In this document: piece by piece, positions 6,134 through 25,113 of the stretch
How positions within the stretch are numbered: position 1 is the stretch's first letter
Layout: each line of letters opens with the position of its first letter
Virus record (IMG/VR): IMGVR_UViG_3300011336_000452
Span: 1-34,930 of that record
Strand: one strand, 5' to 3'
Length of the DNA stretch: 34,930 bases
Source: a virus
Lineage: Duplodnaviria; Caudoviricetes
Position numbers and translations under genes: made by a program
The notes under the pieces: generated by a model
Database searches by the model: none
Seen by the model: the letters and a program-made list of their open reading frames with translations, nothing else
Told to the model about the DNA's origin: nothing

Positions 6134-6274
6134 CTGATTCGGTTCGAGTCCGATCGTTTGCTGAGGTTAGGTAAGTCGGTATTAACAGGCGGTTGGAGTC
6201 CGTCGGCAAGAAATTGTAATGCAAGAATACGAACAGCAATAAAAACGCTTAATAGTGCGAAGTACAAGCACCGA

Positions 6275-10715: not shown

Positions 10716-11214
10716 TCTTGTCTTTGGACGTGAATACGATTTGAGGCACATTGTTCACCTTTTCGCCGTCACTTGTAACATCAATCTTATCACCGTATTT
10801 TTTCGGGTGCATCTTTGCTAGCATCCATTTACGGGTATCTATTTGTAGCTTATTTCGGTGTATTACGTTGTGGTCAACTCGCTTATTTCCGTCTTTATCG
10901 ACGTAAATATCAGCTTCTTGTTTATCTGCAATCTCAATCATTTCCTCAAATATTCGATCTGCCCTTTTTTGACAAGCACGCGCGTATCTTTTGGCGTTAT
11001 ATTCCTCAGAATCAAGCCAAATATAAAAAGATTTTGTATCGAGTTTAAGCCTTTCAAGTGCCTTAAATAGACTAAGTCCCTCAAACTCAATTATTTTCAA
11101 AACGTGTTCAAAATTTTCGGGTTTATTTTTGATTTTTGAGGAGTCTTTTCGAGGTCGTTTGATGTCGGTTGTATTTCTTTTAGGTCGTTTAGGTGTATTT
11201 TCAGGTTTTTTCAT
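10708..11214 (-). CDS. terS: Terminase small subunit
   Basis: N-terminal HTH plus RKWMLAKMHPKKYGDK motif; directly upstream of TerL. Confidence 0.85.
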   Translation of the reverse strand: MKKPENTPKRPKRNTTDIKRPRKDSSKIKNKPENFEHVLKIIEFEGLSLFKALERLKLDTKSFYIWLDSEEYNAKRYARACQKRADRIFEEMIEIADKQEADIYVDKDGNKRVDHNVIHRNKLQIDTRKWMLAKMHPKKYGDKIDVTSDGEKVNNVPQIVFTSKDKNE

Positions 11215-11217
11215 GGT

Positions 11218-11424
11218 TTAAAATTTATTAAACAAACGTCTAATTAAATAACCTCGAATAAATGAGGCTATAAAAAAGACAAAAGTTATTATCAAATTTT
11301 GATTGATAGAAACTTCAATTTGCATAGCTGGGTAAATTATCAATTGAATTAAAAATGAAATAATTAATCCAATTACTACGTTAAAAAAAGATTCGATTGC
11401 ACTATTTTTTTTTGATTGTGGCAC
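11218..11424 (-). CDS. Small membrane protein (2 TM)
   Basis: 68 aa, two hydrophobic stretches, GTG start. Confidence 0.7.
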   Translation of the reverse strand: MPQSKKNSAIESFFNVVIGLIISFLIQLIIYPAMQIEVSINQNLIITFVFFIASFIRGYLIRRLFNKF

Positions 11425-11492: not shown

Positions 11493-11517
11493 CTTTTGTA
11501 AGATTTGAGAATGAGTT

Positions 11518-11704
11518 TAGGTGACAATAAACAAGTTATCCCTCCCCTCCCAATAAAAAGGATAACTTATTTACCACCTATTTACTTCCGTTGAGTTCTC
11601 GAAGTCGTTTGAGGCTGATGTCGGGTAACAAGTTAAGAAAACCCATTTACATCATTTAAGACAAATTGCATACGCGCACCTTTTATCGGTTCTGAACTCT
11701 AACG
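11518..11704. ncRNA. Candidate structured non-coding element
   Basis: Nested stems TAGGTG/CACCTA, AAGTTATCC/GGATAACTT, CGTTGAGTTC/GAACTC-T-AACG, TGATGT/ACATCA, GGGT/ACCC; no ORF. Confidence 0.4.
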
Positions 11705-11736
11705 TATCGCCGTCCGTTGCATTTTGTTATGGGAAC

Positions 11737-11840
11737 AAAAAAACCCTACTAGTGTCAAGCCAAGTAGGGAATTTTAAGTATGAATTTGATAAGAAAATCC
11801 AAATATAATAATCTACCTTGACTTAGACAAAACAAAATTA
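11737..11840 (-). promoter_or_regulatory. Promoter + kissing-loop terminator leader (copy 1)
   Basis: TAATTTTG, 5' hairpin loop GTCAAG, terminator CCCTACT/AGTAGGG plus T run with loop CTTGAC. Confidence 0.6.
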
Positions 11841-12071
11841 CATTTATTTTTCATAGTGTCAAATGGTAGGTTTATTTTTTTATGAAATTCCACTAAAACC
11901 AAAAATAAACAGGTTAAAACCTATCTATTTCAGCTGTTTTTGTATGAATAAGTTATTTTACTTGCATTAATATTTTTAATTAATCGGTATTTCCGATTTT
12001 GTTGTTAAGTGATTGTTGTATATGCGCCATTTATGGCGGTTAGCAGCAAGTTATGGCACATTAAAACGATG

Positions 12072-12326
12072 CCATAACAGCAAATAGGCTCAATTTTTAA
12101 GATAAATCAAAATTACCTAAATTTTGCAACTCAATTAATATTTGAGTTTGTAACCATTCTACTTTTTCTACTGTCCAGTATTTTTTTAATGGAGTATAGT
12201 TTCTTCTAATCTCATTGAGTAGCAAAATTTTATCTGCTGTACTCATTTCTAAAATCTTATTCATATTTATAATTTTTATCTTTTCTTTTTGCTTAAAAAA
12301 CTAAGCCAAGTTGCAAAACGTTAGTT
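12072..12326 (+). repeat. attC-like imperfect palindrome B enclosing a gene
   Basis: CCATAAC-A-GCAAATAGGCTCAATTTTTAAG ... CTTAAAAAACTAAGCCAAGTTGC-AAAAC-GTTAGTT. Confidence 0.65.
12097..12264 (-). CDS. Small hypothetical protein (55 aa) inside attC-like loop
   Basis: Hand-translated MNKILEMSTADKILLLNEIRRNY...GNFDLS; A-rich leader; stop codon lies within the palindrome arm. Confidence 0.7.
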   Translation of the reverse strand: MNKILEMSTADKILLLNEIRRNYTPLKKYWTVEKVEWLQTQILIELQNLGNFDLS

Positions 12327-12330
12327 GCAA

Positions 12331-12537
12331 TTAAAGGCGACCAACTATTTCTTCCAAATCATCTTCTCTGTGTAATGGGCAAACTTCATAAGCGAAATCT
12401 TTAAGGTCTGAAATCGCCTTTGACTGTTCGCTTCGCTCACTAACACTAAATAAAAGCAATAACTGCTCTTGTGCTTCTACAACAGCTATTTGTCCATCAT
12501 TTAGTTTGGTACATATTTTATAAATTTTTTCTTTCAT
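12331..12537 (-). CDS. Small hypothetical protein (68 aa) reading through an attC-like arm
   Basis: Starts 3 nt inside palindrome A; QLLLLFSVS is encoded by the arm and GTTAG core. Confidence 0.7.
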   Translation of the reverse strand: MKEKIYKICTKLNDGQIAVVEAQEQLLLLFSVSERSEQSKAISDLKDFAYEVCPLHREDDLEEIVGRL

Positions 12538-12569
12538 ATCGTTACTGCTTTTATTATTTTACGTTATAA
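12438..12569 (+). repeat. attC-like imperfect palindrome A
   Basis: CACTAAC-ACTA-AATAAAAGCAATAAC ... GTTACTGCTTTTATT-ATTTTAC-GTTATAA. Confidence 0.65.
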
Positions 12570-12646
12570 TCAAGTGGCTAATTTTTACACTAGCCACTTT
12601 AAAAAAGAGCTTAATTCTGTTCAAATGGTAAGAATTAAACTACGTT

Positions 12647-12699
12647 AAAACCCCCTAACTCGTTAAAACTATCCTAGGTTTTTGGTTTACTAGGGGGTT
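12647..12699 (-). terminator. Probable terminator at end of recombination operon
   Basis: AACCCCCTA ... TAGGGGGTT long hairpin followed by TTTT on the minus strand. Confidence 0.5.
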
Positions 12700-12789
12700 G
12701 TATTGGTTTACCAGAGCCAAATATTGACCCTATAAGACAACGCTCTGAGGTGCGAGTGTTATAGGGTAGGTTTTGCCGAACCTCAGTTT

Positions 12790-13005
12790 TTAAAATATCA
12801 ATTTAATCAATCCATAAATAGCAAATACAACTACTGTTCTCACTAGGCTATTAAACACTTTCTTTTCATCGTAAATCCACTTTTGGATCGGTGAACAAGT
12901 CATCCACCAACAAAATGAAAGTATTATTCGATCAATTCCAAATAGCGCTATTGCAAATGGTAATAGCGTAAATCCTAAAATCAATTTGAGTTTATTTTTC
13001 ATCAC
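12790..13005 (-). CDS. Small membrane protein
   Basis: 71 aa with hydrophobic N- and C-terminal segments. Confidence 0.7.
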   Translation of the reverse strand: MMKNKLKLILGFTLLPFAIALFGIDRIILSFCWWMTCSPIQKWIYDEKKVFNSLVRTVVVFAIYGLIKLIF

Positions 13006-13011
13006 TTAAAT

Positions 13012-13233
13012 TTAGTTATTTTCTTGAATAATTCTAGTTATTTCAGCTTGAATTTTTCCGATAGTGTGACTTGAAAGGGCGCATTTGCCTTGAAGAAACA
13101 TATTTATTTTCATTGAATTCATGTAGTTGTATTTCCGGGCAATTGTTGGAATGGTAATGCAATACTTTTCGGTAAAGTTATTCCACTTTTCAATGATGTT
13201 TTTTTCGTATTGTGTTGGCGTGAATTCAATCAT
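13012..13233 (-). CDS. Hypothetical protein, possible HTH
   Basis: 73 aa; coupled to the upstream gene; IPTIARKY...INMFLQGK pattern is weakly HTH-like. Confidence 0.6.
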   Translation of the reverse strand: MIEFTPTQYEKNIIEKWNNFTEKYCITIPTIARKYNYMNSMKINMFLQGKCALSSHTIGKIQAEITRIIQENN

Positions 13234-13691
13234 GATAATAGTTTTTCGTTTTCTTCGTTAATTTCAACTTCTGCATTGCTATTCAACACTTCGACAATAT
13301 TTGTCTTTTTGACCTCGATTTTTTCATAGTCAACTTGAAATTTCTCAAAGTATTCAATGATTTCTTTGTTGGCATTTTCAATTGAATTAGCTTCGACAAG
13401 TAATCTGTTTGTGATTTGTTTGCGACCGCCTTCATCGTCAATCGGTGTGTATTTAATTTTAACCAAATAAAACCATTCTAAATTGTCTTTTATGATTGAA
13501 TCCTGAATGTTGTATCTATTGATTGATAGAATGATTAATTCACCTTTTACGTGCGCCCCTATTTGCTCGTAAATTACAGCTTCAACATCCGTAAAGCTAT
13601 ACGCATTGATTAGATATTCCTCTTTTATGTATTTGTAAGTGCCATCGTCTTGCTGTTTTACGTATTTTACTTTTGCTAAAAATGGATTCAT
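13230..13691 (-). CDS. DUF4494-like protein (Bacteroidota)
   Basis: KVKYVKQQDDG...EEYLINAYSFTDVEA and a duplicated second half ending KKTNIVEV. Confidence 0.7.
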   Translation of the reverse strand: MNPFLAKVKYVKQQDDGTYKYIKEEYLINAYSFTDVEAVIYEQIGAHVKGELIILSINRYNIQDSIIKDNLEWFYLVKIKYTPIDDEGGRKQITNRLLVEANSIENANKEIIEYFEKFQVDYEKIEVKKTNIVEVLNSNAEVEINEENEKLLS

Positions 13692-13882
13692 TTTGTTTTA
13701 AGTTTTTTGTTAATACTTTCTTTATTTTCAATACCGAGTGCCATTTGAATTGCACCTCTAATTATAAATGATTTCGGAGTAATTGAGTTTCCTTGTGATA
13801 ACATTACTTCAATGCTTTCGAGTAGTTGCAGTAATTCGAGATTTTGTTTTTCTAAGTTTACTATTCTTGTTGTTGTATCCAT
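13688..13882 (-). CDS. Hypothetical protein
   Basis: 64 aa, coupled (ATGA overlap). Confidence 0.65.
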   Translation of the reverse strand: MDTTTRIVNLEKQNLELLQLLESIEVMLSQGNSITPKSFIIRGAIQMALGIENKESINKKLKTK

Positions 13883-13885
13883 TTT

Positions 13886-14608
13886 CTAAAAATTTTCTAG
13901 GTTAATAATTTGTCCTTTTGTGGCAATTGTTGTAGGTATAGCAAACCTTTCAATACATTCTCGTTTAAATTTTTGCTCATCTGATGAGGTATCGGATAAG
14001 TGAATTAAAATGATGTTTTTGCATTGCGTTAAATTCAGTTTTTCAAGTGTAAGCATTGCAGTCTGAAAACTCATATGCGCTTTGTAACGACGTTTGTTTA
14101 TGTAGTCATCTGACTTTTTAGATACGATTTCCTCGCAGAAATTAGCCTCGATAATTACATGATCGAATGCCATGTTAAAATTCCATTTCAATCTGTATGT
14201 ATCTGTAATAAATAAAACGCTCCCACAGTCAGAATTATTGATAATAAATCCCATTGTTTGAGGTGAATCGTGTTCAACTTCAAATGCCGAAATCCAAAAG
14301 TCATTTACTTTGTACGTGCGTAAATGTTCAACTTCTTTGTAGCGTTGTTCTTTGCTTATTTTTAACGTGTCAAAAGTTCCTTTGGATGCAAGTACAGGTA
14401 CGCCGTTTTGCATTACTTGTTTGATTGATTTGGAATGATCTCCGTGCGCATGAGAAACAATACATGCTTTAACCTTAAACCAATCATAATTTAATGCTTT
14501 TACTATTTCTTGGTACTTGACCCCACACTCAATTAAGAGCGTGGAATCTTTCCCATTTAAGATATAGCAATTGCCAATACTTCCAGATGAAATTACTTTT
14601 AATTCCAT
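13886..14608 (-). CDS. MBL-fold metallo-hydrolase (probable exonuclease partner of RecT)
   Basis: SSGSIGN, SHAHGDH, EHD, TDT, EANF, AHMS and IHLS motifs. Confidence 0.9.
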   Translation of the reverse strand: MELKVISSGSIGNCYILNGKDSTLLIECGVKYQEIVKALNYDWFKVKACIVSHAHGDHSKSIKQVMQNGVPVLASKGTFDTLKISKEQRYKEVEHLRTYKVNDFWISAFEVEHDSPQTMGFIINNSDCGSVLFITDTYRLKWNFNMAFDHVIIEANFCEEIVSKKSDDYINKRRYKAHMSFQTAMLTLEKLNLTQCKNIILIHLSDTSSDEQKFKRECIERFAIPTTIATKGQIINLENF

Positions 14609-14611
14609 GTG

Positions 14612-15619
14612 TTAAAACTTCATTTCGGGTTGTGTTTCACTTGCTGGCGTGTTTGTTTTAACAGGCTCGCTAGCTTCAATTTCAAATACAACATCCGTTG
14701 CCGTAGTTTCGTTTACTATTTCGTGTTTAACATCTTCAGTAAATGTTGTTTCAGGCTCGTCAAATTCAGTCTTTGACGTGTCACCAAATACGCTAATAAA
14801 CTGTTCGTTAATCTTTTGCGAATCAATTGTGATGTCGTTGTATGCAGCTCGGTAAATAGTCTTGTAAACCATTTCATCGAACCAACCTTCAATTTTTTCT
14901 TTCCCAGATGCTTTACCACCTGAATAAGTAGTCTTTTCACCTCCCCAAAATTCAGCACTTGCGTATTTTGGTTTACGTTTTTCAATGTCGTGCAAAGTAA
15001 AAAATCGTAATCTGTTTTTTTCGGGATTTGAATTAAAAATATGATAATAAAAACCGCCAACAATTTGACCTCTGTTTTTCCAATCTACAATTTCAAATTC
15101 ATATTTTTCAATTAGATTATCGTAGCTTTTTTTGATAGGTTTAAATAAGTCATTTTCATAAATAACCTCTATAATTACATGGTTAGGCACTTCGGTTTCA
15201 AGTCCAAATTTTGTAGCTTTCAATCCTAATCCACGATAACCAATAATCGGTGTAATCTCGTACTTGTTGGTGTGGCCGTTTTTATACGGGATGAGGTTTA
15301 CGTGATTAGGCTGTAATGGGTCAAGGCCAACGCCTGACAATGGCACTACTTTAAGCGCTAAATCAGTCATGTTTATATTTTCCCACTTGTAAGCTAGTTG
15401 TTCTCGGTTTTGTTCAGGTGTTTTTAGCCTTTTTGTTTCAGCTAATTGTAACGATTGATCGAGTTTAATAAAGTAGTTTTGAATTAATTTCTTTTGAAAT
15501 ACGGTTAATTCAACCGTACCTGCGTTTGCTGAAAATTCTTTCAATACAGCTCCGGTAAATCGCTCACTTGCAGCCATGTTTTTAGTAGCTGGCTTTGCTA
15601 CTTGTTCATTTTTTTCCAT
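14612..15619 (-). CDS. recT: RecT-family single-strand annealing recombinase
   Basis: GLDP...LIPY...IGYRG...W...FDEMVYKTIYR motifs; acidic C-terminus. Confidence 0.85.
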   Translation of the reverse strand: MEKNEQVAKPATKNMAASERFTGAVLKEFSANAGTVELTVFQKKLIQNYFIKLDQSLQLAETKRLKTPEQNREQLAYKWENINMTDLALKVVPLSGVGLDPLQPNHVNLIPYKNGHTNKYEITPIIGYRGLGLKATKFGLETEVPNHVIIEVIYENDLFKPIKKSYDNLIEKYEFEIVDWKNRGQIVGGFYYHIFNSNPEKNRLRFFTLHDIEKRKPKYASAEFWGGEKTTYSGGKASGKEKIEGWFDEMVYKTIYRAAYNDITIDSQKINEQFISVFGDTSKTEFDEPETTFTEDVKHEIVNETTATDVVFEIEASEPVKTNTPASETQPEMKF

Positions 15620-15640
15620 AATTTGATGTTTTATTTTTTA

Positions 15641-15648
15641 CAAATATA
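15641..15648 (-). promoter_or_regulatory. -7 promoter box for recT
   Basis: TATATTTG 21 nt upstream of the ATG. Confidence 0.65.
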
Positions 15649-15669
15649 CAATAAATTCTTATTCAAAAA

Positions 15670-16047
15670 TCAATTATTTGAATTATTTTTTAGTGAGAGT
15701 TCTTGATTGTTCAAAGCGAAAACAACATTTTGCCATTCATGGACAAACTCTACTTTTGTTATGTAAGCATTTGTTTCTCTACAAGTCACATAGTAAAATT
15801 CGTAATCGGGTAGATATTTAAGTCTAAATCTGTCAAAAATAAATTCATCACCAATTTTAATTGCATCAAAATTAAATAACCATTCATCGGTTAGTGGGAT
15901 TGGTTTTAAACAAGTTCCAACATAAAAACTATTTGTATTATCGTGTATTTTTACAATGTTATTTTCTCTAATTTCAGTAATTATAACGTGTCCTTGTTTA
16001 CCGTTTAAATAATTACCAATCCTAAGTTCATTTGCTTTTAGTGTCAT
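15670..16047 (-). CDS. Hypothetical protein (ELRIGN...HxxQN family, paralog 1)
   Basis: Shares terminal motifs with 21942..22334 and 22347..22760. Confidence 0.75.
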   Translation of the reverse strand: MTLKANELRIGNYLNGKQGHVIITEIRENNIVKIHDNTNSFYVGTCLKPIPLTDEWLFNFDAIKIGDEFIFDRFRLKYLPDYEFYYVTCRETNAYITKVEFVHEWQNVVFALNNQELSLKNNSNN

Positions 16048-16232
16048 AATTCTTGTATTTCTTGTTTAACTTCTTGCCAATATTCTTTTCTTACTTGCAT
16101 AAAACCCCAATCGCTTTCAACTGCTATTAAAATCTCATCAACCGTTATTAAAGCGCATTTTTTAGCATTATCAGTTTCACCTAATTTATCAAACTTCATA
16201 GCTAACTCTATTGCTTTCTCTTTAGGACTCAT
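16044..16232 (-). CDS. Hypothetical protein
   Basis: 62 aa, ATGA-coupled on both sides. Confidence 0.75.
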   Translation of the reverse strand: MSPKEKAIELAMKFDKLGETDNAKKCALITVDEILIAVESDWGFMQVRKEYWQEVKQEIQEL

Positions 16233-16612
16233 AAATTATCAATTTTAATGTTTACATTTTCATAAAAATTACATCGAATACGTAATTTTATTAGTTCTAA
16301 TTTTTTAAGTGAGCTACATTTCATTACATCGATTGCTAAATTAAATGTTAATTCAGGTTTTTTAAATGCAATACGTATCTTATCTGTGTATTCAAAATAC
16401 AAAGCATCCTGTATTCTTTCGTAATACTCATGAACTTTTACACCGTAAATTATTGTAGAGTGTTCACGTCCAAAAATTTCACCTATTTCATTGTAATTCA
16501 ATCCGTGTTCATAAAGCAAGTTGTAAAGAAAATACCTTTGATATGTAACGGTTCTTTTTTTGCAATATGCCGTTAAATTGTTTTGCTTTATGTATTCAAT
16601 TATCTTTTCCAT
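16229..16612 (-). CDS. HTH protein, DnaA domain IV-like
   Basis: LNYNEIGEIFGREHSTIIYGVK matches the DnaA C-terminal IGxxFGRDHSTV signature. Confidence 0.75.
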   Translation of the reverse strand: MEKIIEYIKQNNLTAYCKKRTVTYQRYFLYNLLYEHGLNYNEIGEIFGREHSTIIYGVKVHEYYERIQDALYFEYTDKIRIAFKKPELTFNLAIDVMKCSSLKKLELIKLRIRCNFYENVNIKIDNL

Positions 16613-16691
16613 AGTTTCTAATTATTCCGATTGATATTGTTATTATTCCTACACTAAATAGTAGTAGCGCCATCTTTGCTTCTTCTGTCAT
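16596..16691 (-). CDS. Small membrane peptide (31 aa)
   Basis: Hand-translated MTEEAKMALLLFSVGIITISIGIIRNYGKDN; fills the gap between neighbours. Confidence 0.5.
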   Translation of the reverse strand: MTEEAKMALLLFSVGIITISIGIIRNYGKDN

Positions 16692-16692
16692 C

Positions 16693-16896
16693 TTATTCTG
16701 ATTTAAATGTTAATAACTCAATAGCTTCTTTTAATTGTGGTATTCTAATAAAAGCTAATCTTCTACTTTCTTCAAATGCTTTTTGAGTATCTTCATTCAT
16801 TATAAATCCTTTACCTTTTAACATTTGGTTTGCAGATTCAAGTGCTGTTAATTCTTGATTAAGTTTTTTCTGTAATAATTCAATAACGTATTCCAT
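16693..16896 (-). CDS. Hypothetical protein
   Basis: 67 aa, A-rich leader. Confidence 0.7.
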   Translation of the reverse strand: MEYVIELLQKKLNQELTALESANQMLKGKGFIMNEDTQKAFEESRRLAFIRIPQLKEAIELLTFKSE

Positions 16897-16917
16897 TTTA
16901 TTTGTTTTTGTTTGTTT

Positions 16918-17208
16918 CTAGTTATTCGGGAATAAAGCGGGGGCTACAAGCATCCAAAAATATTTTACTGAATAGTCATATTCTTTTGTTTCATAAAAAG
17001 AATCCTCTGATAATTCAATCAATAAAACATCCTCTTTTTCATCATATTCAAAACATAACCATCGTGTGTTTTTATTATCATTTCGGAAAATTTTAACTTG
17101 ACATCGAAATTCAGATGCTTCATCTTTGTCAATGAAATATCCCATATCGTATTCATCACACTCGGAATCCAAGTATTCTTTTAGCCTTTTTTCAAACTTT
17201 TCGTTCAT
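16918..17208 (-). CDS. Acidic hypothetical protein
   Basis: 96 aa, rich in Asp/Glu and aromatics. Confidence 0.7.
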   Translation of the reverse strand: MNEKFEKRLKEYLDSECDEYDMGYFIDKDEASEFRCQVKIFRNDNKNTRWLCFEYDEKEDVLLIELSEDSFYETKEYDYSVKYFWMLVAPALFPNN

Positions 17209-17243
17209 ATTGATTTGTGTTTTAAAAAGTTTTTTTTTTCGTG

Positions 17244-17492
17244 TTACTCTGCGTTAAAAGTTTTATCGAAGTATTCTTCTGCACTATTCCAATCAATTTT
17301 ATATCCATTCGCTAAATCTTGACCTGCGTGAAGGTTGTCTTGTGCGGTTTTAACTATATGCTCCCTAAAAATATATTGAGCAAGTATTATGGCTCTTGCT
17401 TTTGCATCAGAATATTCCGTAGATTCTTTGTAGAACTCTTTTTCTATTCTATCAAATTCTTCGGCTAACCAATTTACTACTGTCTGTTTCAT
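17244..17492 (-). CDS. Hypothetical protein
   Basis: 82 aa; similar termini to 26614..26838. Confidence 0.7.
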   Translation of the reverse strand: MKQTVVNWLAEEFDRIEKEFYKESTEYSDAKARAIILAQYIFREHIVKTAQDNLHAGQDLANGYKIDWNSAEEYFDKTFNAE

Positions 17493-17596
17493 ACCGTTAA
17501 AAGTTTAAATGCTGCGTAAATACAAGCTATTACAGTCAATCCAATAATTACCATCGATATTTGACCTACTATTTTTTCAAATTTAGATTCTTGCAT
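17489..17596 (-). CDS. Small membrane peptide (35 aa)
   Basis: Hand-translated MQESKFEKIVGQISMVIIGLTVIACIYAAFKLLTV; ATGA overlap with the next gene. Confidence 0.55.
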   Translation of the reverse strand: MQESKFEKIVGQISMVIIGLTVIACIYAAFKLLTV

Positions 17597-17599
17597 TGG

Positions 17600-19531
17600 T
17601 TATAAATTTTGAATAGTTAGTACTTCGCATTCTTTGTCTACTATCAAATTGATTATTTGAGAATTTGACCGTAACAAAGTTGTAATTGATTCTCGGTTAT
17701 CAATGAAAATAGGAGCTAAAATTTGATAGTGCAAATTCAATGCATTTACGATGTCAATACCTACATTCATTTGAAGAGCTTTATTCATTGCTGAATACGG
17801 TTTACCGTCAACAATAGCCTCACACGATGGATCTATACCGCCGTTAATTTGAACGTTAAACATTTTCCATTTAACCAACTTGAATAAACCATTAACACGT
17901 TGTTCTACAATATTCATTTTCGTTTCATTAAATTTGTCGATTTGGTTTTCGGTTTTTTGTAACTCAGCTATTTGACTTGCGACGGCTTTTTGTTCGTTTG
18001 ATAAATCTGAAATACGTTGTGAACGTCTTTCGATTTCAGTTTTCTTGTATAACTGTTGTTTAAGTAATTCCAGTACGGCTTCAATTTCTTTTTTCGATTG
18101 TAATAACTCATCGAAATTAGCCTGTTTAATTTCAGGAACTACAAACTTTTCAATTTGCTGTTTAAGCATTTGAATTTCTGCGGTTGTTTCTTGAGCGAAA
18201 AACTGATTGTCTTTATCGAATGATTGTAATTCTAGTTGCTTAGATTCAAGTTTTGTTTGAATTTCTTTGAAGTTAAATTCTTTGTATTTTGTCATTAAGG
18301 CTTCAATCTTTGCCTTATTTGCAACTCCAGTTTCATTTAGTTTTTGTAATTGATCGTGTTTCTTTTGATTGAATGACAAACGCAATTCATTTACTTTGCT
18401 TTCTGAATTATCAATTTGTCGGTTGCAAGTTGGGCAGCATACATCGGTTGGATTAAGTTCAAATTGTTGGGCTTGTAATTCCTTAAATTCCTCTCGAATA
18501 ACGTTGTTTTCAGATTCTAACTTTCCGATATTATGCGCAATCGTATCGGACTGACTGTTTAGATTTTCAAGTGTGTTTTTAAGATGCGTAATTTCGCGCT
18601 CAATATCCATTTTCTTAGAAAGAATATTGTTCTTTGTAACTTCGTTTTTAGTTCGTAATTCAGATTCTAGTTTATTACATTTCTGAATTAACTCAAAGCG
18701 TTCGTTATTAGCTGCAATTACCTTTTGTTGTTCAGTTGCATTTGCTTGTTGAATATCCACAATGGATGCATCTAATTTGGCTATTTCAGATTTCTTTTCT
18801 TCAATCTGTTTTTCGATTGATTCAAAATCTATTTGTTCGGTATCTGAATAATTAGCTTCTTTGATTCGTGTTTCAATTTCAGATAATTGATCTTTGAGTA
18901 ATTTAACTCTTTGGTTAATTACCTTTTTTTCTTCGATTAAATCCTTTTTGTTATTGATTAGTTCGATTAGTTCATTCGATGGATTGAAAGCGCCTAAAAT
19001 AGTTTCGTTAGTAATTTCACCAGCCATTACAGTTAGAACCTCTCTGCGATCATTCCATTTCATTTTTTCCATGAAATAAAGAGGGTTTGTAATTAGCTTA
19101 GAAACTTGCTCATCAATTAGCTCTTTGATAAATGCTTCGTATTCGTTTTTTTTCTTTTCAACTAGGTTAATGAAAAATGTTGTTTCGTGACCTGTAAGCT
19201 CTTCAATGTCGTTCCCACGTTTTCTAGTCCATTTCTCGGTATAAACACGTCTTAATTCAATTTCTTGACCGTCTGAAATGATAATTGCACTGACTTCATG
19301 TTCTAACTTTGGAATAAAGTTGTTATCCTTATCAAAAGTCTTAATTGGGAAATCGGTTCGATCCAATGAATCTTTACCAAACAACAACCAGTTATAAGCA
19401 TCGAAAATTGTTGTTTTACCAGCTGTGTTTTTTCCTAGAATGTTTGTTTCATTGCTAGTAAAGTCAATTTGGAATGACTTAATTCCTTTAAAGTTGCGTA
19501 ATTCTAAACGCTTTAAAAATAGATTTTTCAT
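17600..19531 (-). CDS. SbcC/Rad50-like coiled-coil ATPase
   Basis: LRNFKG, Walker A GKNTAGKTT, long coiled coil, CPTC zinc hook, C-terminal PIFIDNRES. Start set at ATG 19531 because the track's TTG lies in the promoter. Confidence 0.88.
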   Translation of the reverse strand: MKNLFLKRLELRNFKGIKSFQIDFTSNETNILGKNTAGKTTIFDAYNWLLFGKDSLDRTDFPIKTFDKDNNFIPKLEHEVSAIIISDGQEIELRRVYTEKWTRKRGNDIEELTGHETTFFINLVEKKKNEYEAFIKELIDEQVSKLITNPLYFMEKMKWNDRREVLTVMAGEITNETILGAFNPSNELIELINNKKDLIEEKKVINQRVKLLKDQLSEIETRIKEANYSDTEQIDFESIEKQIEEKKSEIAKLDASIVDIQQANATEQQKVIAANNERFELIQKCNKLESELRTKNEVTKNNILSKKMDIEREITHLKNTLENLNSQSDTIAHNIGKLESENNVIREEFKELQAQQFELNPTDVCCPTCNRQIDNSESKVNELRLSFNQKKHDQLQKLNETGVANKAKIEALMTKYKEFNFKEIQTKLESKQLELQSFDKDNQFFAQETTAEIQMLKQQIEKFVVPEIKQANFDELLQSKKEIEAVLELLKQQLYKKTEIERRSQRISDLSNEQKAVASQIAELQKTENQIDKFNETKMNIVEQRVNGLFKLVKWKMFNVQINGGIDPSCEAIVDGKPYSAMNKALQMNVGIDIVNALNLHYQILAPIFIDNRESITTLLRSNSQIINLIVDKECEVLTIQNL

Positions 19532-19552
19532 AAAATTGATGTTTTGTTTTGA

Positions 19553-19560
19553 CAAATATA
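19553..19560 (-). promoter_or_regulatory. -7 promoter box for the ATPase gene
   Basis: TATATTTG 21 nt upstream of the ATG; flanks nearly duplicate the recT promoter. Confidence 0.65.
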
Positions 19561-19606
19561 TAAATAAATTCTTGTTTAATATGCTTTTTTAGTAATTATT
19601 TTTTGT

Positions 19607-21790
19607 TTAGAATAATGTCAATGTACTATTTTTTTCTTCAATACATTCTTTATGGTTTTTTGCATTTAAAGCAAAATAGCTTTCTTTTAATTCAATTGAT
19701 ATTGATTTTCTATTCATTTTCAAAGCGCAAAAACCCTCGCTACCAATGCCGCCAAACGGACTAAATACAATTTCATTTTCATTTGAGTATAAATGAATTA
19801 TTCTTTCAATTGTATCTAACTGCAAAGGGCATATGTGTTTCTCATCATTTCCATCACGTCCGGATCTATATTGTAATGTTCTTGAATAATCAATATCATA
19901 CCAAACAGGAGATGCGTATTTTTGCCACAAATCAACAGGTAAATAATCTTTTTTTGATGGATCAATATCTTGATGAGTAATTGGTATTTCATTTTCACCT
20001 TCATTTCTAAAAAATAAAACATAATCAGGAATACCTACCCTTGTCATAGAACTATCTTTTTTAATAGTTTTATGAAGTAATCCTAATGCTTTTGTGCGTT
20101 GCATTTCAGTAACAGGATTTTTCCATATTGTGGTTCTTGAATGATAGATAAATCCATTTTCTTGAAACCAATCAATAAGCATTCCTGAAAAGTCACGTAA
20201 TCCGATATATCCCTCTTTGCCTTTTTGGATAGGTAAATCCATACAATGAATAGCACAAATTCGACCGGGTTTTAATATTCGTTTTAATTCTGGAATAAGG
20301 AATTTAAAATGTTGCTCAAATTGTTTGTAATCTGAAACATTTCCCATATCCTCTTCTTTGTCTGAATAAACATATAATTCAGCAAATGGAGGGCTAAATA
20401 CAATTAAATCTGCTGTATTATCATGTATTTTTTTGCTTTCTTGAACACAATCACCATTCAATAAATGATAGTTTTCTGTAATAATTTCTTTTTTGTTTAT
20501 CATAACTTTTGATTTATTTGATTTATAATCTGTTTCACTTGAATATTTTGCCATTTCTTGAATCATTTCAAAATGCCTTTGTTGCTTTTCTAATATTGTT
20601 TGTCTAACATTTATTTGTGATTCTGGAATTAAAATATGTACTGTAACTTTATTTTTTTGACCAAAACGATAGCAACGTCTAACCGCTTGATAAAACTGTT
20701 CAAACTTAAAATCATATGACATAAAAATCATTTGATTACAGTTTTGATAATTCATTCCAAATGAAGCAATAGAAGTCTTTGTAATTAAAGTTTTAAATTC
20801 ATTTTTTGCAAATCCATTTAAATATTTTGCTTTATATTCTGGACTATTTGAACCTTGAACATTTATTGCATTTTCTAGTTTTGATTCAATGCAATCTGTC
20901 TCATTATTTTTTAATCCCCAAATTATCCATTGATTATCATTTGAGTTTATTAATTCAATAGTTTTTTTAATTCTATTTTCAAATGATCGTTCTAAGTCTT
21001 TATGTAAGTCAGTTGCTGAAATTGCAACGTCTCCAAATAAGGTATTTGTATTGTTTTCAACTGAAATTACGTGTTCAATATATTCAATTTCTGGCAAAGC
21101 GTATCCACTATGACAAAATCCCAAAGTATTTGGATTATCGCATGCCATTGACCAAGTGCATACATATTTCCAAAATGGATCTTTAGCATGTTTTCTAAGT
21201 CTCCATTTTGAAGTTTCACCTCCGTCATGAACAAAATACATTGCTAACATTTCTAAATAGCTCATAGCGCCTAAAAATTCACTGTGTTGCCCTAGTTCCA
21301 TATGATCGTTTGGTGATGGTGTTGCTGTACATGCTAATTTGTAAGGTGTATATTTAAAACTTTCTATAATCAAATTAGATAGTTTACCATCCCTACCCTT
21401 TAAAATTGAACTTTCATCTAAAACAACTCCAGAATATTGATTTATGTTTTCAATATTTTTTAATTGATCGTAATTGGTAATATCAAAACAATCTAATGAA
21501 ATACCAAACTTTAAAGCCTCATCTTTTGTTTGTTCAACAACTGCTAATGGAGCTAAAATCAATACCTTTTTTTGAGTATGATTAAATACTAATTCACTCC
21601 ATGATAATTGCATTAAGGTTTTACCTAATCCACAATCAAAAAATAATGCAAATTTCCCTTTTTTTAATGCTGTTTTTACCGCATACTTTTGAAAGTCAAA
21701 TAGATTTTTATTAAGTTTTTCTTCATTAACTTCAAATCCACTTTCAATAAATTGTTTTTTCTTTTGATTTAAAAAATCTTTATAATCCAT
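19607..21790 (-). CDS. SF2 (SNF2-like) helicase fused to N4/N6 DNA methyltransferase
   Basis: Helicase motifs DCGLGKT, LDESS, CTATP, QAVRRCYRFGQ; then GDC, FSPPF, H-I-C-P and FSPFGGIGS (beta-class order). Start at ATG 21790. Confidence 0.88.
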   Translation of the reverse strand: MDYKDFLNQKKKQFIESGFEVNEEKLNKNLFDFQKYAVKTALKKGKFALFFDCGLGKTLMQLSWSELVFNHTQKKVLILAPLAVVEQTKDEALKFGISLDCFDITNYDQLKNIENINQYSGVVLDESSILKGRDGKLSNLIIESFKYTPYKLACTATPSPNDHMELGQHSEFLGAMSYLEMLAMYFVHDGGETSKWRLRKHAKDPFWKYVCTWSMACDNPNTLGFCHSGYALPEIEYIEHVISVENNTNTLFGDVAISATDLHKDLERSFENRIKKTIELINSNDNQWIIWGLKNNETDCIESKLENAINVQGSNSPEYKAKYLNGFAKNEFKTLITKTSIASFGMNYQNCNQMIFMSYDFKFEQFYQAVRRCYRFGQKNKVTVHILIPESQINVRQTILEKQQRHFEMIQEMAKYSSETDYKSNKSKVMINKKEIITENYHLLNGDCVQESKKIHDNTADLIVFSPPFAELYVYSDKEEDMGNVSDYKQFEQHFKFLIPELKRILKPGRICAIHCMDLPIQKGKEGYIGLRDFSGMLIDWFQENGFIYHSRTTIWKNPVTEMQRTKALGLLHKTIKKDSSMTRVGIPDYVLFFRNEGENEIPITHQDIDPSKKDYLPVDLWQKYASPVWYDIDYSRTLQYRSGRDGNDEKHICPLQLDTIERIIHLYSNENEIVFSPFGGIGSEGFCALKMNRKSISIELKESYFALNAKNHKECIEEKNSTLTLF

Positions 21791-21803
21791 ACTAAAATAA
21801 TTT

Positions 21804-21906
21804 AAAAAACAAACCCCCGTACTGATAGCCACAACCACGAGGCGTTTCAATACGAGGGTTCAAACTTAATTTCTTCATTTGTGGTTGTTATTTGAATGCA
21901 AATATA
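21804..21906 (-). promoter_or_regulatory. Promoter + kissing-loop terminator leader (copy 2)
   Basis: TATATTTG, 5' loop ACAACCAC, 14-bp terminator stem with loop GTGGTTGT, then TTTGTTTTTT. Confidence 0.7.
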
Positions 21907-21941
21907 ATAACTATTTGTTTATGTTTTACTTTTTGTGAAAT

Positions 21942-22334
21942 TTATTTTAGTTTTTTTAATTCTAATCCAGATAATTCAAACCATAAATTCTGTAATTGAT
22001 GTATGTAATCTAACCTTCTAATTTGTTGATTTCCTATATAACATTTAAATGCTTTTAATGTATCTATATCATCTGTAAATCTTATCTTAAATACGTTTCC
22101 TTCATAAAAAGAAAAATAACTTCCTTTTTCATCTTTAAATTTATACAAGCCTAAATCAAATAAACGACCTTCTGTTAATTCATAAGGGTGTAAAAAATCT
22201 AAACCATTGTACAATCTTATTTTTTCAAATACATATAAATCAATTTCAATTAATCCTTTTGGAAATAAACAATTTGAATTTTTTGAATATAAATAGTTAC
22301 CAATTTTAAGTTCATTTAATTTTAATTTTTTCAT
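21942..22334 (-). CDS. Hypothetical protein (ELKIGN...HQLQN family, paralog 2)
   Basis: 130 aa; shared terminal motifs. Confidence 0.75.
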   Translation of the reverse strand: MKKLKLNELKIGNYLYSKNSNCLFPKGLIEIDLYVFEKIRLYNGLDFLHPYELTEGRLFDLGLYKFKDEKGSYFSFYEGNVFKIRFTDDIDTLKAFKCYIGNQQIRRLDYIHQLQNLWFELSGLELKKLK

Positions 22335-22346
22335 AATTTATATAAT

Positions 22347-22760
22347 TTATTTTATTTCTAGTTCATTTCCACTTAAAACAAATACCAAATTTTGTAGAGT
22401 GTGGATGTGTAATTCATTACTCCAAAAAATACGACCCTCTTTTATTTCGTTCCAACGGTATTCATGTATTAAAATAATTTCAAATTTTGTTACCTCGCTG
22501 TGACCAGATTCTAAAATAGTAATTTCAATATGCTTTTTATTTCCGTTGTTATTTGATATTTCTTTGATGAAATATTGTTGAATAAAATGTTCACTTCGTT
22601 TATGCTGATAAGCAAATCCAAATTTCACTAACCATTCTGGATCGACTTCGATAAATTGACAATCAATCAAATGATAAAAGTCACCGTCAAATTGCTTTAT
22701 TTCATCTTTTTCAATAAACCAGTTACCTATCCTTAGTTCTTTCACGTTTTTTTCGGTCAT
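22347..22760 (-). CDS. Hypothetical protein (ELRIGN...HTLQN family, paralog 3)
   Basis: 137 aa; shared terminal motifs. Confidence 0.75.
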   Translation of the reverse strand: MTEKNVKELRIGNWFIEKDEIKQFDGDFYHLIDCQFIEVDPEWLVKFGFAYQHKRSEHFIQQYFIKEISNNNGNKKHIEITILESGHSEVTKFEIILIHEYRWNEIKEGRIFWSNELHIHTLQNLVFVLSGNELEIK

Positions 22761-23416
22761 AAATAATCAAATATTGAAGTTTGTTTTTCGTCTTTTTTTC
22801 TAATAATTCCTAGTGCTGTTTCAAGTATTGTTTTACCAGCTTCATAGTCTACTAAGTTACGAGCCATTTTAATTATTGATTGTTCGCCTTTATAATTATT
22901 AAAATTGTAATCGTGAAATTTACATAGTTTATTTAATTCATCTACCGTTGAACCACCAATATTGGCGTGCCTATTTGAAAGAATGTTAGGTAAAACAAAA
23001 TTAGACCAATATAAATGTCTTCCGCGTTTTTGTGCGGGTATCAATGGCTCATAATAAGGAATAACATTTTCAATAATATATTTACCTTTAAAAAAATTAT
23101 CTAATAACAATATCTCTTCATATAATTTCATATCAGGATAAACAGCCTTAATTTTATTTGAAATAACACCCGATATTCTTGCACGTGAATGACTTGGACA
23201 AGGAGGTGAACTCCAAATAAAATCAAACTCTTTGTAATGGTCTAACAAATATTGGTGCGCGTCTGCTACTATTACTTCGTCTTTTGGAAAACGCTCTTTG
23301 TATAAACGTGCTGCTTCATGGTCAAGTTCAACCGCAGTAATTTCTAAATTATGAGCTACTTCGTCCCACTTGTAACGATTACCACCTAAACATGCGTATA
23401 AATTTAAAATTTTCAT
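22757..23416 (-). CDS. Compact C5-cytosine DNA methyltransferase
   Basis: Motif I LNLYACLGG, motif IV SSPPCPSHS, motif VI ENV, motif VIII RGRH. Confidence 0.85.
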   Translation of the reverse strand: MKILNLYACLGGNRYKWDEVAHNLEITAVELDHEAARLYKERFPKDEVIVADAHQYLLDHYKEFDFIWSSPPCPSHSRARISGVISNKIKAVYPDMKLYEEILLLDNFFKGKYIIENVIPYYEPLIPAQKRGRHLYWSNFVLPNILSNRHANIGGSTVDELNKLCKFHDYNFNNYKGEQSIIKMARNLVDYEAGKTILETALGIIRKKDEKQTSIFDYL

Positions 23417-24261
23417 ATCTCACAATTTAATACATTTTTCAAATCCAAATTCTCATGTTTCAGCTTTTCAAAAACTTCATTTACGCAAATGAAATAACAT
23501 TCCTCTTGAACTGAATTTACGGTGCGTTGTGTTTCGTTCATGTGTTCATGTATTGCATTAAAAATTTTGTTCTTATTCGCTTCAAAAATTCCATTATTCG
23601 ACTTAAATTGAATACCTAAGTCAATATTTTTAATGGCTTGTTTATGAATTACTTGTTTTTGCTCCAAATCAAAATCAATTATTCGGTGAAATTCCACTAA
23701 ATTTTGATAAATCAATTTAATTGGTGTGTATCCAGTTTCTATTTTACCATTTTCAATGTAGTTTTTAAACATCGGAACTATTACATTACTCTCAAAATCC
23801 TTTCTAATTCGTACCTTTTCAATTTCGCTAGGCTCTTCAGGTTGTGGTAATGCGTTTATTTGCTTTGCTAGTTCCGCATTTATCTTTAACCGATGTTGTT
23901 CACTATATGCTTTCATTATTCGACCGAAATATTCAGGTGAAAAAGATCCGTAATGCTTACAATCTGTATTTAATTCACCTTTGGCAGCCATTGTAAAGGC
24001 GTATTTCATTTCTGCAAGTGAATAATTTAGGTAATTTTCTCGAATAAATGCTATTAACAAATCCATGTGATGGCTTCCCGGTACATTTTCTTTTGGTAAA
24101 CCTACCATAAAAATTGCATATGTAATTATTTCAGCTAATTGATTGTCAGTTGAAATTTTTACTTTCAATGGATGCAATATTGAATCTTTAACTGTTTTTG
24201 TATCTATTAGCGAGGTTGAATAATGCGTCCATGTACTGATCTGACTTACTTCCTGTTTCAT
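23413..24261 (-). CDS. Replication-associated protein (helicase loader/adaptor-like by position)
   Basis: 282 aa overlapping the end of the initiator gene; start uncertain. Confidence 0.5.
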   Translation of the reverse strand: MKQEVSQISTWTHYSTSLIDTKTVKDSILHPLKVKISTDNQLAEIITYAIFMVGLPKENVPGSHHMDLLIAFIRENYLNYSLAEMKYAFTMAAKGELNTDCKHYGSFSPEYFGRIMKAYSEQHRLKINAELAKQINALPQPEEPSEIEKVRIRKDFESNVIVPMFKNYIENGKIETGYTPIKLIYQNLVEFHRIIDFDLEQKQVIHKQAIKNIDLGIQFKSNNGIFEANKNKIFNAIHEHMNETQRTVNSVQEECYFICVNEVFEKLKHENLDLKNVLNCEI

Positions 24262-24964
24262 TATTTTTTGTTTTATTGATTACTATTTCGTCTTCCCAAT
24301 GTTGACCGTTTAGCCACGTCAAAGGATTTTTTCTAAACTGAATATCTGGAGTTGACTTTTTGTATTCAGTCGCTTTGTCGATTATCAAATCGTAAAGTTC
24401 GGGTTTTATTTTTTTGAACTTTTCAAATGATTTTGATTTGCCATATTTTTTATCGTAAGCATCCCAAAAAAGATTAAAATAAAATTCATAATCGACAGTA
24501 TTATATTCTTTACATTCTTTTAATTCTTTTTCTTCTTTTAATTCTTTACATTCTTGTTTGTTTCCGTCTGCTTTATTATTTGGTTTACTATCTGATTTAC
24601 TATCTGCTTTACTATTTGTTTTACTATCTGCTTTATCATCCTTTTGATATTCTTTGTAATTAACTATTGATATTAAAGTAGTTACGTTCGTTTTTTGCCT
24701 TACTATTTGATTATCATTTTCAAGAAATTTTACAAACCTTTCGACCTTTCCTCTTGACCACTTCCAACGCTTCGCTAAACTATCCAAATCGTATCCAATT
24801 TGACCTCTTTTAACTTCAACTTTTACACCTCTTTTAAAGAAAAAACTATCTGCATGATTAGCTAAAAGTAACATATCAATCCAAGCTAAAGACCGATTAA
24901 AAGGCTCTGAAAAATACAAAGGATTTTCCATTATCTTTCTGTAAATTTTAATCCATCCACTCAT
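24188..24964 (-). CDS. Replication initiator (lambda O / DnaD-like)
   Basis: MSGWIKIYRK...LLLANH...RGQ...LAKRWKWS N-domain; repeat linker; C-domain FWDAY...NPLTWLNGQHWEDE. Confidence 0.88.
   Translation of the reverse strand: MSGWIKIYRKIMENPLYFSEPFNRSLAWIDMLLLANHADSFFFKRGVKVEVKRGQIGYDLDSLAKRWKWSRGKVERFVKFLENDNQIVRQKTNVTTLISIVNYKEYQKDDKADSKTNSKADSKSDSKPNNKADGNKQECKELKEEKELKECKEYNTVDYEFYFNLFWDAYDKKYGKSKSFEKFKKIKPELYDLIIDKATEYKKSTPDIQFRKNPLTWLNGQHWEDEIVINKTKNNETGSKSDQYMDALFNLANRYKNS
24506..24643. repeat. Probable replication origin: 12-bp iterons plus 9-bp AT-rich repeats
   Basis: Six tandem TTTACTATCTGC-like units (24572-24643) next to six TTCTTTwnn-like units (24506-24559), inside the initiator gene. 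Confidence 0.7.
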
Positions 24965-25010
24965 TTAATTAAATTTGATAAAAACGGAAATTTCCATTTT
25001 TATAGTAAAC

Positions 25011-25113
25011 AAAAAAAACCTCCTAAATCCTGTGCGTCTCACTTCACATTCATTAAGAGGTTTAGTAACATCTTTCAGTTCTATTGTGTGAGACGGAACT
25101 GTATACAAAAATA
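25011..25113 (-). promoter_or_regulatory. Promoter + kissing-loop terminator leader (copy 3)
   Basis: TATTTTTG, hairpin CAGTTC/GAACTG with loop CGTCTCAC, terminator with loop GTGAGACG and T8. Confidence 0.7.

What the first reader, a model, noticed from the sequence alone, without database searches (positions are those of the whole stretch)
11737..25113. Recurrent promoter-proximal 'kissing-loop terminator' leaders with unrelated sequences
Seen on the minus strand three times: a TAnnTTTG box, a hairpin starting 2-4 nt later, and an intrinsic terminator 25-45 nt further on whose loop is exactly complementary to the first loop. At 25011-25113 (before the replication initiator) the pair is CGTCTCAC/GTGAGACG. 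At 21804-21906 (before helicase-MTase) it is ACAACCAC/GTGGTTGT. At 11737-11840 it is GTCAAG/CTTGAC. The sequences differ completely while the pairing is kept, which acts as natural covariation. Inference: a family of about 100-nt attenuators or small RNAs gating replication and modification genes, possibly switched by an antisense RNA or protein and giving each operon its own 'address'. I do not recognise it as a named family.
Basis: partly seen in the sequence, partly recalled or inferred. Interest (0 to 1): 0.8.

Follow-up and report, generated by a model that had tools for sequence, protein, structure and literature searches.

The report
Self-pairing terminator leaders in Bacteroidota phages
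Three gene clusters of this phage begin with a predicted ~90-base leader RNA in which a short word near the start is exactly complementary to the tip of a predicted transcription-stop hairpin; related phages keep that match with dozens of different words, and the pairing likely lets transcription pass the stop until the leader's own stopped copies would block it, an untested RNA-only way to limit DNA-replication and packaging genes.

Summary
The three elements are real. My descriptor finds exactly these three in the window (0.15 per shuffle). Each has relatives with compensatory changes. In a loop-blind search of the locus-1 scaffold, 60 of 60 promoter-plus-terminator hits pair 8/8, using 11 words. 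The class heads the replication operon in 6 of 6 cultured phages picked by protein.

Corrections: locus 2 has no stable 5' hairpin. Its word sits on the start of a 28-codon uORF that reads through the terminator. In 9 of 16 members of that subfamily a third copy covers the next start codon and covaries with the word. Locus 3 precedes packaging genes. In about 30 phages the two loop modules of locus 1 are swapped.

Likely mechanism (untested): cis pairing blocks terminator closure (ON), as in guanidine-IV but without a ligand. Terminated leaders would pre-empt it in trans (OFF), as P4 CI RNA does. No Rfam match and nothing found in ten literature searches, but the Fremin 2023 alignments could not be searched. 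This scan noted the class before on other DNA.

The parts
25106..25113 (-). Locus 1 predicted Bacteroidota -7 promoter box (TAnnTTTG)
   Evidence: consensus from PMC7366714 passage
25076..25101 (-). Locus 1 5' hairpin P1 with the 8-nt word a1 (25088-25095) in its loop
   Evidence: fold; 5 of 5 P1 pairs show two-sided changes in 45 aligned members
25019..25060 (-). Locus 1 terminator-like hairpin P2: outer stem, conserved GAA/GGA internal loop (25049-25051, 25028-25030), 4-bp inner stem, 10-nt apical loop with complement a' (25035-25042)
25011..25018 (-). Locus 1 U tract (8 T)
24965..24997 (-). 10-codon mini-ORF starting 21 nt after the terminator base, with its stop directly before the initiator ATG; possibly the remnant of a small first gene
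   Evidence: read from the sequence; relatives L001/L002 carry a short gene here
24188..24964 (-). DnaD-like / replication initiation protein downstream of locus 1
   Evidence: PHROGs 2514 E 5e-27, 270 E 1e-15
21899..21906 (-). Locus 2 predicted -7 promoter box
21881..21888 (-). Locus 2 word a1, single-stranded, 2 nt before the uORF AUG
21792..21878 (-). 28-codon upstream ORF that runs through the terminator and stops 1 nt before the helicase-MTase ATG
   Evidence: 14 of 16 subfamily members have such an AUG and all 14 read through, in three frames
21811..21861 (-). Locus 2 terminator-like hairpin with complement a' (21831-21838); T run 21804-21813
19607..21790 (-). SNF2-type helicase / N6-N4 methyltransferase fusion downstream of locus 2
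   Evidence: Pfam and PHROGs; 83% identical to Flavobacterium columnare phage proteins
11833..11863 (-). Locus 3 predicted promoter: TTTG (11860-11863), 19 nt, -7 box (11833-11840)
11811..11828 (-). Locus 3 5' hairpin with word a1 (11817-11822)
   Evidence: stem change in relatives L297/L497
11784..11804 (-). Locus 3 middle hairpin in the linker
   Evidence: fold; also predicted in L297, L362, L354, L053, L315
11737..11769 (-). Locus 3 short terminator-like hairpin with complement a' (11754-11759) and U tract (11737-11743)
   Evidence: three different codes in 4 of 4 relatives
10708..11424 (-). 68-aa ORF (11218-11424) and terminase small subunit (10708-11214), head of the packaging operon downstream of locus 3
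   Evidence: relatives have a terminase-small-subunit-like ORF 311-323 nt after the terminator

Best explanation
These are predicted 5' leader RNAs of Bacteroidota phages in which a 6-9-base word near the start is exactly complementary to the tip of a predicted intrinsic terminator; the two likely pair during transcription and likely keep the terminator from closing (read-through), and released terminated leaders would occupy the word of new transcripts and so switch the operon off. Shown: the pairing covaries in all three scaffolds, its spacing is constrained, the loop modules can be swapped, and the locus-2 subfamily has a uORF and a covarying third copy. Inferred: that the RNAs are made, that pairing means ON (about 0.6), and that the OFF signal is the leader's own terminated product acting in trans (about 0.35). 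In the locus-2 subfamily the same a' loop would also block the uORF start and the downstream start codon, so both outputs point the same way.
For: COVARIATION. Loop-blind scaffold search: 120 matches, 77 unique. 60 of 60 with box plus U tract pair 8/8 Watson-Crick using 11 words; 0 of the other 17 do. Locus 2: ACAACCAC vs ACGACCAA; 15 of 15 promoter-bearing unique metagenome hits match 8/8 with the loop unconstrained, 0 of 14 others. Locus 3: 4 of 4 hits compensate, three codes. Leaders found through the initiator protein alone carry other words. All 4 helices covary in a MAFFT alignment, 22 of 25 pairs two-sided; the kissing helix there was partly selected. GEOMETRY. Word-to-word gap 41-50 nt in 86% of 66 non-redundant elements (38 words) versus 17% of 71 shuffled hits. 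Median linker 15 nt against a P2 arm of 17. ORDER AND ENERGY. For locus 1 the a1:a' helix is the predicted optimum at 72-84 nt and the terminator wins only from 88 nt; core terminator -11.8 versus duplex -11.7 kcal/mol. PRECEDENT. In guanidine-IV the kissing loop hinders the full terminator stem and hardly forms in the terminator-length RNA (PMC11611296 passages). MODULARITY. 30 promoter-bearing elements carry the locus-1 loops in swapped order with their flanks, including cultured phages tooticki6-1, lillamy9-1 and elemoA; FCV-1 has the same swapped geometry with another word. POLARITY AND TRANS CLUE. A third copy lies at the downstream start in 9 of 16 locus-2-type members (background 13 of 1685 ORFs) and changes with the word in L003 and L529. 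These members have weaker U tracts (mean 4.7 versus 6.0 T of 8). This is the seqA / CI / seqC layout of P4 (PMC4825925 passage). POSITION. Head of the replication operon in 6 of 6 cultured phage records picked by protein, 5 independent; also before NUMOD4-HNH nucleases, helicases and terminase.
Against: No transcript, termination or reporter data. None of the window's three elements has the third copy, so the trans clue comes from relatives of locus 2 only. A terminated leader holds both word and complement and could pair with itself or with another copy; P4 CI needs processing, for which there is no evidence here. The kissing helix is not more variable than the other stems (3 of 8 pairs show no two-sided change), so there is no sign of diversifying selection. 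Paralog differences are weak evidence (5 of 5 pairs; about 0.3 by chance word frequencies). At locus 2 the terminator (-27.6) far outweighs the duplex (-10.4), so a ribosome on the uORF may matter more than the pairing, and pairing there could repress the uORF (opposite polarity). At locus 3 the duplex is weak (-5.6), and two more TAnnTTTG boxes (11492, 11472) lie between it and the late genes. The 83%-identical helicase-MTase of FCV-1 has no such leader directly upstream. Folding energies ignore pseudoknot geometry.
Confidence: 0.45

Rival explanations
1. Purely cis rheostat: the pairing competes kinetically with terminator closure and sets a fixed or condition-dependent read-through fraction (pausing, NusA/NusG, ribosome coupling, a protein or small ligand), with no role for the released RNA.
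For: Tight spacing and matched energies. Word variation is comparable to other stems. The locus-1 word occurs only inside the element in 14 of the 16 genomes selected for it, so no other phage targets. Guanidine-IV works in cis. A conserved GAA/GGA loop could be a binding site.
Against: It does not explain the covarying third copy on the downstream start codon. A ligand pocket is unlikely with 38 different words, several unrelated scaffolds and swapped loops.
Confidence: 0.3
2. Pairing belongs to the OFF or product state: it compacts and stabilises the terminated ~90-nt RNA, or blocks uORF initiation so the terminator forms. Read-through comes from a phage antiterminator (Q/N-like) or a ribosome.
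For: In the locus-2 subfamily a1 overlaps the uORF start and the terminator is strong (median -20.7 versus -15.3 kcal/mol). Locus 3 sits where lambdoid pR'/tR' sits, before packaging genes (analogy recalled).
Against: With a1:a' paired the third copy is free, which makes pairing ON for the downstream gene. No antiterminator family was detected among the window ORFs scanned, though small unannotated ORFs remain.
Confidence: 0.15
3. pT181-type attenuator controlled by a counter-transcribed antisense RNA.
For: A terminator lies upstream of a replication initiator; a + strand TAnnTTTG at 24970 points into locus 1.
Against: Opposite-strand boxes are not enriched: 9 of 66 within 140 nt versus 9 of 66 in control windows. 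A full antisense RNA needs no internal complementarity.
Confidence: 0.05
4. DNA-level feature: inverted repeats bound by a protein, or a single-stranded DNA structure at an origin.
For: Perfect Watson-Crick inverted repeats next to replication initiators.
Against: G-U pairs are frequent in the terminator stem on the coding strand. Position is fixed after a promoter box and before a U tract. The uORF and third copy are translation features. It also occurs before nucleases and terminase.
Confidence: 0.05

Closest known systems
Guanidine-IV riboswitch (GGAM-1/mepA) and Gd4v variant (PMC7736828, PMC11611296, PMC9788692)
   Same: Two hairpins joined by a loop-loop pseudoknot; the 3' hairpin is an intrinsic terminator; similar size; the kiss is reported to hinder full terminator formation.
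   Different: [quoted passage not shown] Here the pairing letters vary freely, the loops can be swapped, and phage replication, nuclease and packaging genes lie downstream. No Rfam match.
Phage P4 CI RNA (seqA/seqC) and P1/P7 c4 antisense RNA (RF01695; c4-a1b1)
   Same: An antisense segment inside the leader with a complementary site upstream and, in the locus-2 subfamily, one downstream on the next start codon; premature termination of replication genes (P4, PMC4825925 passage).
   Different: Different phylum, no Rfam match, much shorter, one short word, the antisense segment is the tip of the terminator itself. No processed free RNA shown. Most scaffolds and all three window copies lack the downstream site. 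c4 details are recalled; only the reference listing was seen.
Gifsy-1 IsrK (PMC4825925)
   Same: A short terminated isoform of a phage leader acts in trans on the read-through isoform.
   Different: IsrK activates translation of the long isoform; here repression is inferred. No sequence or structure match tested beyond Rfam.
pT181/pIP501 antisense transcription attenuators (recalled)
   Same: A conditional terminator in the leader of a replication initiator.
   Different: These need a counter-transcribed RNA; no enrichment of antisense promoters here.

Membership tests
Guanidine-IV / Gd4v riboswitch | Two hairpins joined by a loop-loop pseudoknot, the 3' one a terminator | tested here: met
   Loci 1 and 3 and relatives; not met at locus 2, which has no stable 5' hairpin
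Guanidine-IV / Gd4v riboswitch | [quoted passage not shown] | tested here: not met
   11 words in one scaffold, 38 among 66 elements, loops swapped in 30
Guanidine-IV / Gd4v riboswitch | Downstream sugE/mepA-type transporter genes | tested here: not met
   45 downstream proteins scanned: DUF6291, NUMOD4/HNH, helicase, GP3_package, ParB or no family; no transporter
Guanidine-IV / Gd4v riboswitch | Ligand-dependent read-through | not testable with these tools
   needs in-line probing or termination assays
P4 CI / P1 c4 antisense immunity RNAs | Complementary targets both upstream and downstream of the antisense segment | tested here: inconclusive
   Met in 9 of 16 locus-2-type members and 14 of 15 promoter-bearing metagenome hits (many close relatives), absent in the window's three and in other scaffolds
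P4 CI / P1 c4 antisense immunity RNAs | Match to the Rfam C4 models | tested here: not met
   No hit at E<=1 in the window or 15 related loci, none at E<=5 in the tooticki6-1 region
P4 CI / P1 c4 antisense immunity RNAs | Free antisense RNA processed from the leader that acts in trans | not testable with these tools
   needs transcript mapping and trans assays
pT181-type attenuators | Counter-transcribed antisense RNA from an opposite-strand promoter | tested here: not met
   9 of 66 versus 9 of 66 control; promoter consensus scan only
pT181-type attenuators | Terminator in the leader of the replication initiator | tested here: met
   locus 1 and 6 of 6 cultured records; terminators are predicted
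Fremin 2023 viral candidate structured RNAs (PMC10690425) | Sequence match to one of the 8,495 IMG/VR candidate alignments | not testable with these tools
   The two zip files gave no text and three other files were too large. Candidates upstream of NUMOD4/HNH genes exist, e.g. DNAVirus_1203, 96 nt, not called a terminator

The most novel reading that the evidence does not exclude
Bacteroidota phages regulate replication, nuclease and packaging operons with protein-free, sequence-addressed RNA feedback switches built from two interchangeable kissing-loop modules. Each operon's terminated leader represses only transcripts with its own word, giving timed shut-off, copy control and word-specific superinfection immunity from 90 bases of RNA.
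Probability: 0.3. Interest if true: 0.88.

Novelty: new variant of a known kind. Interest (0 to 1): 0.7.

Why it matters
Almost nothing is known about how phages of Bacteroidota time their gene expression. This element heads the replication operon in every cultured phage record checked here (6 of 6), so it can be tested directly in laboratory phage-host pairs. It would be a natural, ligand-free version of the guanidine-IV kiss-versus-terminator switch. It would also link that switch to P4/P1 immunity RNAs within one family. Dozens of natural orthogonal words would be a ready parts list for RNA control in Bacteroidota.

Tried and rejected
Rfam: only a tRNA and a sub-threshold Trp_leader hit in the window; a DUF805b hit next to, not on, one relative.
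blastn of leaders against cultured phages: only short chance-level matches or none.
The generic terminator scanner missed all three elements because its loop limit is 3-8 nt.
Sequencing runs: no RNA holder was listed; read laying was not used.
The locus-1 covariance model R1 hits only locus 1 in the window, so loci 2 and 3 are separate sequence families. It found nothing in 151 sampled genomes of a Bacteroidetes MAG's phylum (27 candidates scored each). The scaffold pattern gave 2 real hits among 15 in genome contigs, both on short MAG contigs with non-Bacteroidota labels.
Antisense promoter enrichment: none.
A U-turn (YUNR, recalled motif) is not kept across the words.
A conserved leader peptide was rejected because the uORFs use three frames.
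The first locus-3 search gave 1 real hit of 4.
Rows dropped before counts: 24 of 145 descriptor hits by position and AT filters, then reduction to 68 at 85% identity and removal of 2 likely chance hits; L081 as a chance hit from the locus-2 set of 17. That filter also dropped window locus 3.
Thirty contigs were not searched for paralogs, so the paralog count may be low.
Full report
Setting. The window is a 34.9-kb phage contig (its own record). Nearly all genes lie on the minus strand: replication and recombination genes, terminase, portal and tail. Its helicase-methyltransferase is 83% identical to proteins of Flavobacterium columnare phages, so the host is likely a flavobacterium (inference). 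No integrase or repressor family was hit among the ORFs scanned (35 in Pfam, 44 in PHROGs, 10 in NCBIfam).

Observation. A descriptor written for this finds exactly these three among 75 TAnnTTTG boxes, against 0.15 per shuffle in 150 shuffles; this test is post hoc. Locus 1 folds into a 6-bp 5' hairpin and a long terminator-like hairpin. Locus 3 folds into a 5-bp hairpin, a middle hairpin and a 7-bp terminator. Locus 2 has no stable 5' hairpin. Rfam has no match to any of them.

Locus 1 family. A word-anchored search gave 55 viral stretches, most with the same scaffold and many different downstream genes. A search that fixed only the scaffold returned 120 matches, 77 unique. Sixty had a full promoter box and a U tract, neither required by the pattern beyond TTTG, and all 60 paired 8 of 8 using 11 different words; none of the other 17 did. 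Five leaders reached through the N-terminal part of the initiator protein alone all show a pair, each with other letters. In a 45-sequence MAFFT alignment, 95% of cells pair and 22 of 25 pairs show two-sided changes. The terminator stem has many G-U pairs on the coding strand, and a GAA/GGA internal loop is conserved. The kissing helix in that alignment was partly selected for, so the loop-blind count is the fair test.

Swapped modules. Tooticki6-1, lillamy9-1 and elemoA carry the same words in reverse order: the purine-purine-GTGAGA(C/T)G 10-nt loop is on the 5' hairpin, and the C(G/A)TCTCAC loop with its A-rich tail is on the terminator. FCV-1 shows this geometry with another word. A targeted search gave 61 unique matches; 30 had the promoter box and matching words, 26 of them with a T run by my rule. 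This is a permutation, not an inversion. The unpaired flanks travel with each word, which argues for a real loop-loop structure (inference).

Locus 2 family. The word covaries (ACAACCAC, ACGACCAA, and CTCTCACAA in phi13:2). In a loop-blind metagenome search, 15 of 15 unique promoter-bearing hits matched 8 of 8 and 0 of 14 others did. Fourteen of 16 members have an AUG directly after the word. All 14 uORFs read through the terminator, in three different frames, whereas only 23 of 174 frames are open in other scaffolds. The window's uORF (21878-21792) stops 1 nt before the helicase-MTase ATG. Nine of 16 members repeat the word at the downstream start codon, against 13 of 1685 background ORFs. 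The copy changes with the word in L003 and L529, and these members have weaker U tracts. A triad scan found 17 unique triads in 2.6 Mb, all in this family, and none in three shuffles of 1.33 Mb. The window copy and its closest relative L072 lack the third copy and have good U tracts.

Locus 3 family. With the middle of the word left free, 4 of 4 viral hits compensate, giving three codes, and all lie 311-323 nt before a terminase-small-subunit-like ORF. In the window the next ORF starts 312 nt downstream, followed by terS.

Breadth. In 37 viral genomes chosen for carrying one element, the descriptor gave 57 hits against 6.6 per shuffle. By my reading, 34 were the selected element, 14 were further convincing elements with other words, and 9 looked like chance. 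Six of six cultured phage records picked by a DUF6291-type replication protein (11b, Harreka_1, tooticki6-1, lillamy9-1, phi13:2, elemoA; two share one leader) have an element at the head of that operon. Across 66 non-redundant elements with 38 words, the word-to-word gap is 41-50 nt in 86%, against 17% of shuffled hits. No genome showed two elements with one word. Five independent same-scaffold pairs (G001, G035, G200, the G215 group, G261) all differ, but that has about a 0.3 chance. Two carriers are proviruses. The locus-1 model found nothing in 151 sampled bacterial genomes.

Mechanism. Shown: conserved, covarying pairing with fixed spacing behind a predicted promoter. Inferred step 1: the complement emerges about 25 nt before the terminator's GC base. 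For locus 1 the a1:a' helix is the predicted optimum until 84 nt and matches the terminator core in energy. A 15-nt linker would have to span roughly 30 stacked pairs, so kiss and full stem likely exclude each other. This is what is reported for guanidine-IV, where the kiss hinders the stem and hardly forms in terminator-length RNA (PMC11611296 passages; proposed in PMC7736828). Inferred step 2: polarity is ON, because pairing at a1 also frees the third copy on the start codon. Inferred step 3, the least secure: with no conserved ligand pocket and no antisense promoter, the simplest OFF signal is the terminated leader, whose a' loop would be free to bind a1 (and the third copy) of new transcripts. 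That is the logic of P4 CI acting on seqA and seqC (PMC4825925 passage). Against it: self-pairing of the released RNA, no evidence of processing, no excess variability of the words, the very strong terminator at locus 2, the weak duplex and extra promoter boxes at locus 3, and no expression data. A purely cis rheostat is the main rival.

Known or new. It is not a member of guanidine-IV, C4 or pT181-type systems by the features tested; it works like a blend of the first two. Ten searches of the held library listed no paper describing it; most subscription papers are not held. What I read: PMC7736828 abstract, part 1 of section 12 and passages; PMC11611296, PMC9788692, PMC4825925, PMC7366714 and PMC2864571 passages only; PMC10690425 passages and term searches in its spreadsheets. 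Its alignment archives could not be read, so the motif may sit unnamed among its 8,495 candidates. Details of P1 c4, pT181, lambda pR' and YUNR are recalled. Earlier notes of this scan describe the same class on other DNA and supplied the guanidine-IV lead; one describes a three-copy version.

Verdict. A real, widespread, uncatalogued class of phage leader RNAs; a new variant of a known kind; interest 0.7. The most novel open reading, addressed RNA-only feedback and immunity, has probability about 0.3.

Noticed in passing
window 11500-11736 (-), especially hairpin 11519-11579: Conserved non-coding block after locus 3 with a long, near-perfect hairpin. A similar block follows the related element in G018 (L354 from 7846). 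Could be a packaging or origin site or another RNA.
   Followed up: partly
window 24965-24997 (-): 10-codon mini-ORF inside an 11-bp hairpin between terminator 1 and the initiator; its stop abuts the initiator ATG.
   Followed up: partly
window 24970-24977 (+): Opposite-strand TAnnTTTG pointing into locus 1; not enriched in relatives.
   Followed up: yes
window 6081-6162 (+) (ARAGORN); Rfam 6025-6133: tRNA-Ser(CGA) on the strand opposite all phage genes, between scaffold and capsid genes; the two tools give different ends.
   Followed up: no
window 11856-11869 and 11751-11768 (-): The -33 region of the locus 3 promoter resembles the terminator sequence (shared TTGACACTA), possibly an old duplication.
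   Followed up: no
L062 1306-1338 (+): Rfam DUF805b (above gathering score) directly downstream of a locus-1-type leader; a tandem cis element.
   Followed up: no
L004 and L005, upstream of the initiator: Variant with a 12-bp pairing, an AUG next to the 5' segment and an extra helix enclosing the terminator.
   Followed up: no
L316, L362, L384, L386, L388, L399: NUMOD4-HNH endonuclease genes often carry their own promoter plus leader, suggesting the leader travels with mobile nuclease cassettes.
   Followed up: partly
window 15670-16047, 21942-22334, 22347-22760 (-): Three paralogous small ORFs of phrog_10066.
   Followed up: no
L496-L499, about 310 nt between the locus-3-type terminator and terS: A second, highly conserved non-coding spacer type, different from the window's.
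   Followed up: no
L302 (G045), L311/L396 (G044): Locus-1-type leaders on short contigs in MAGs labelled Bifidobacterium and Fonsibacter; probably misbinned phage DNA.
   Followed up: no
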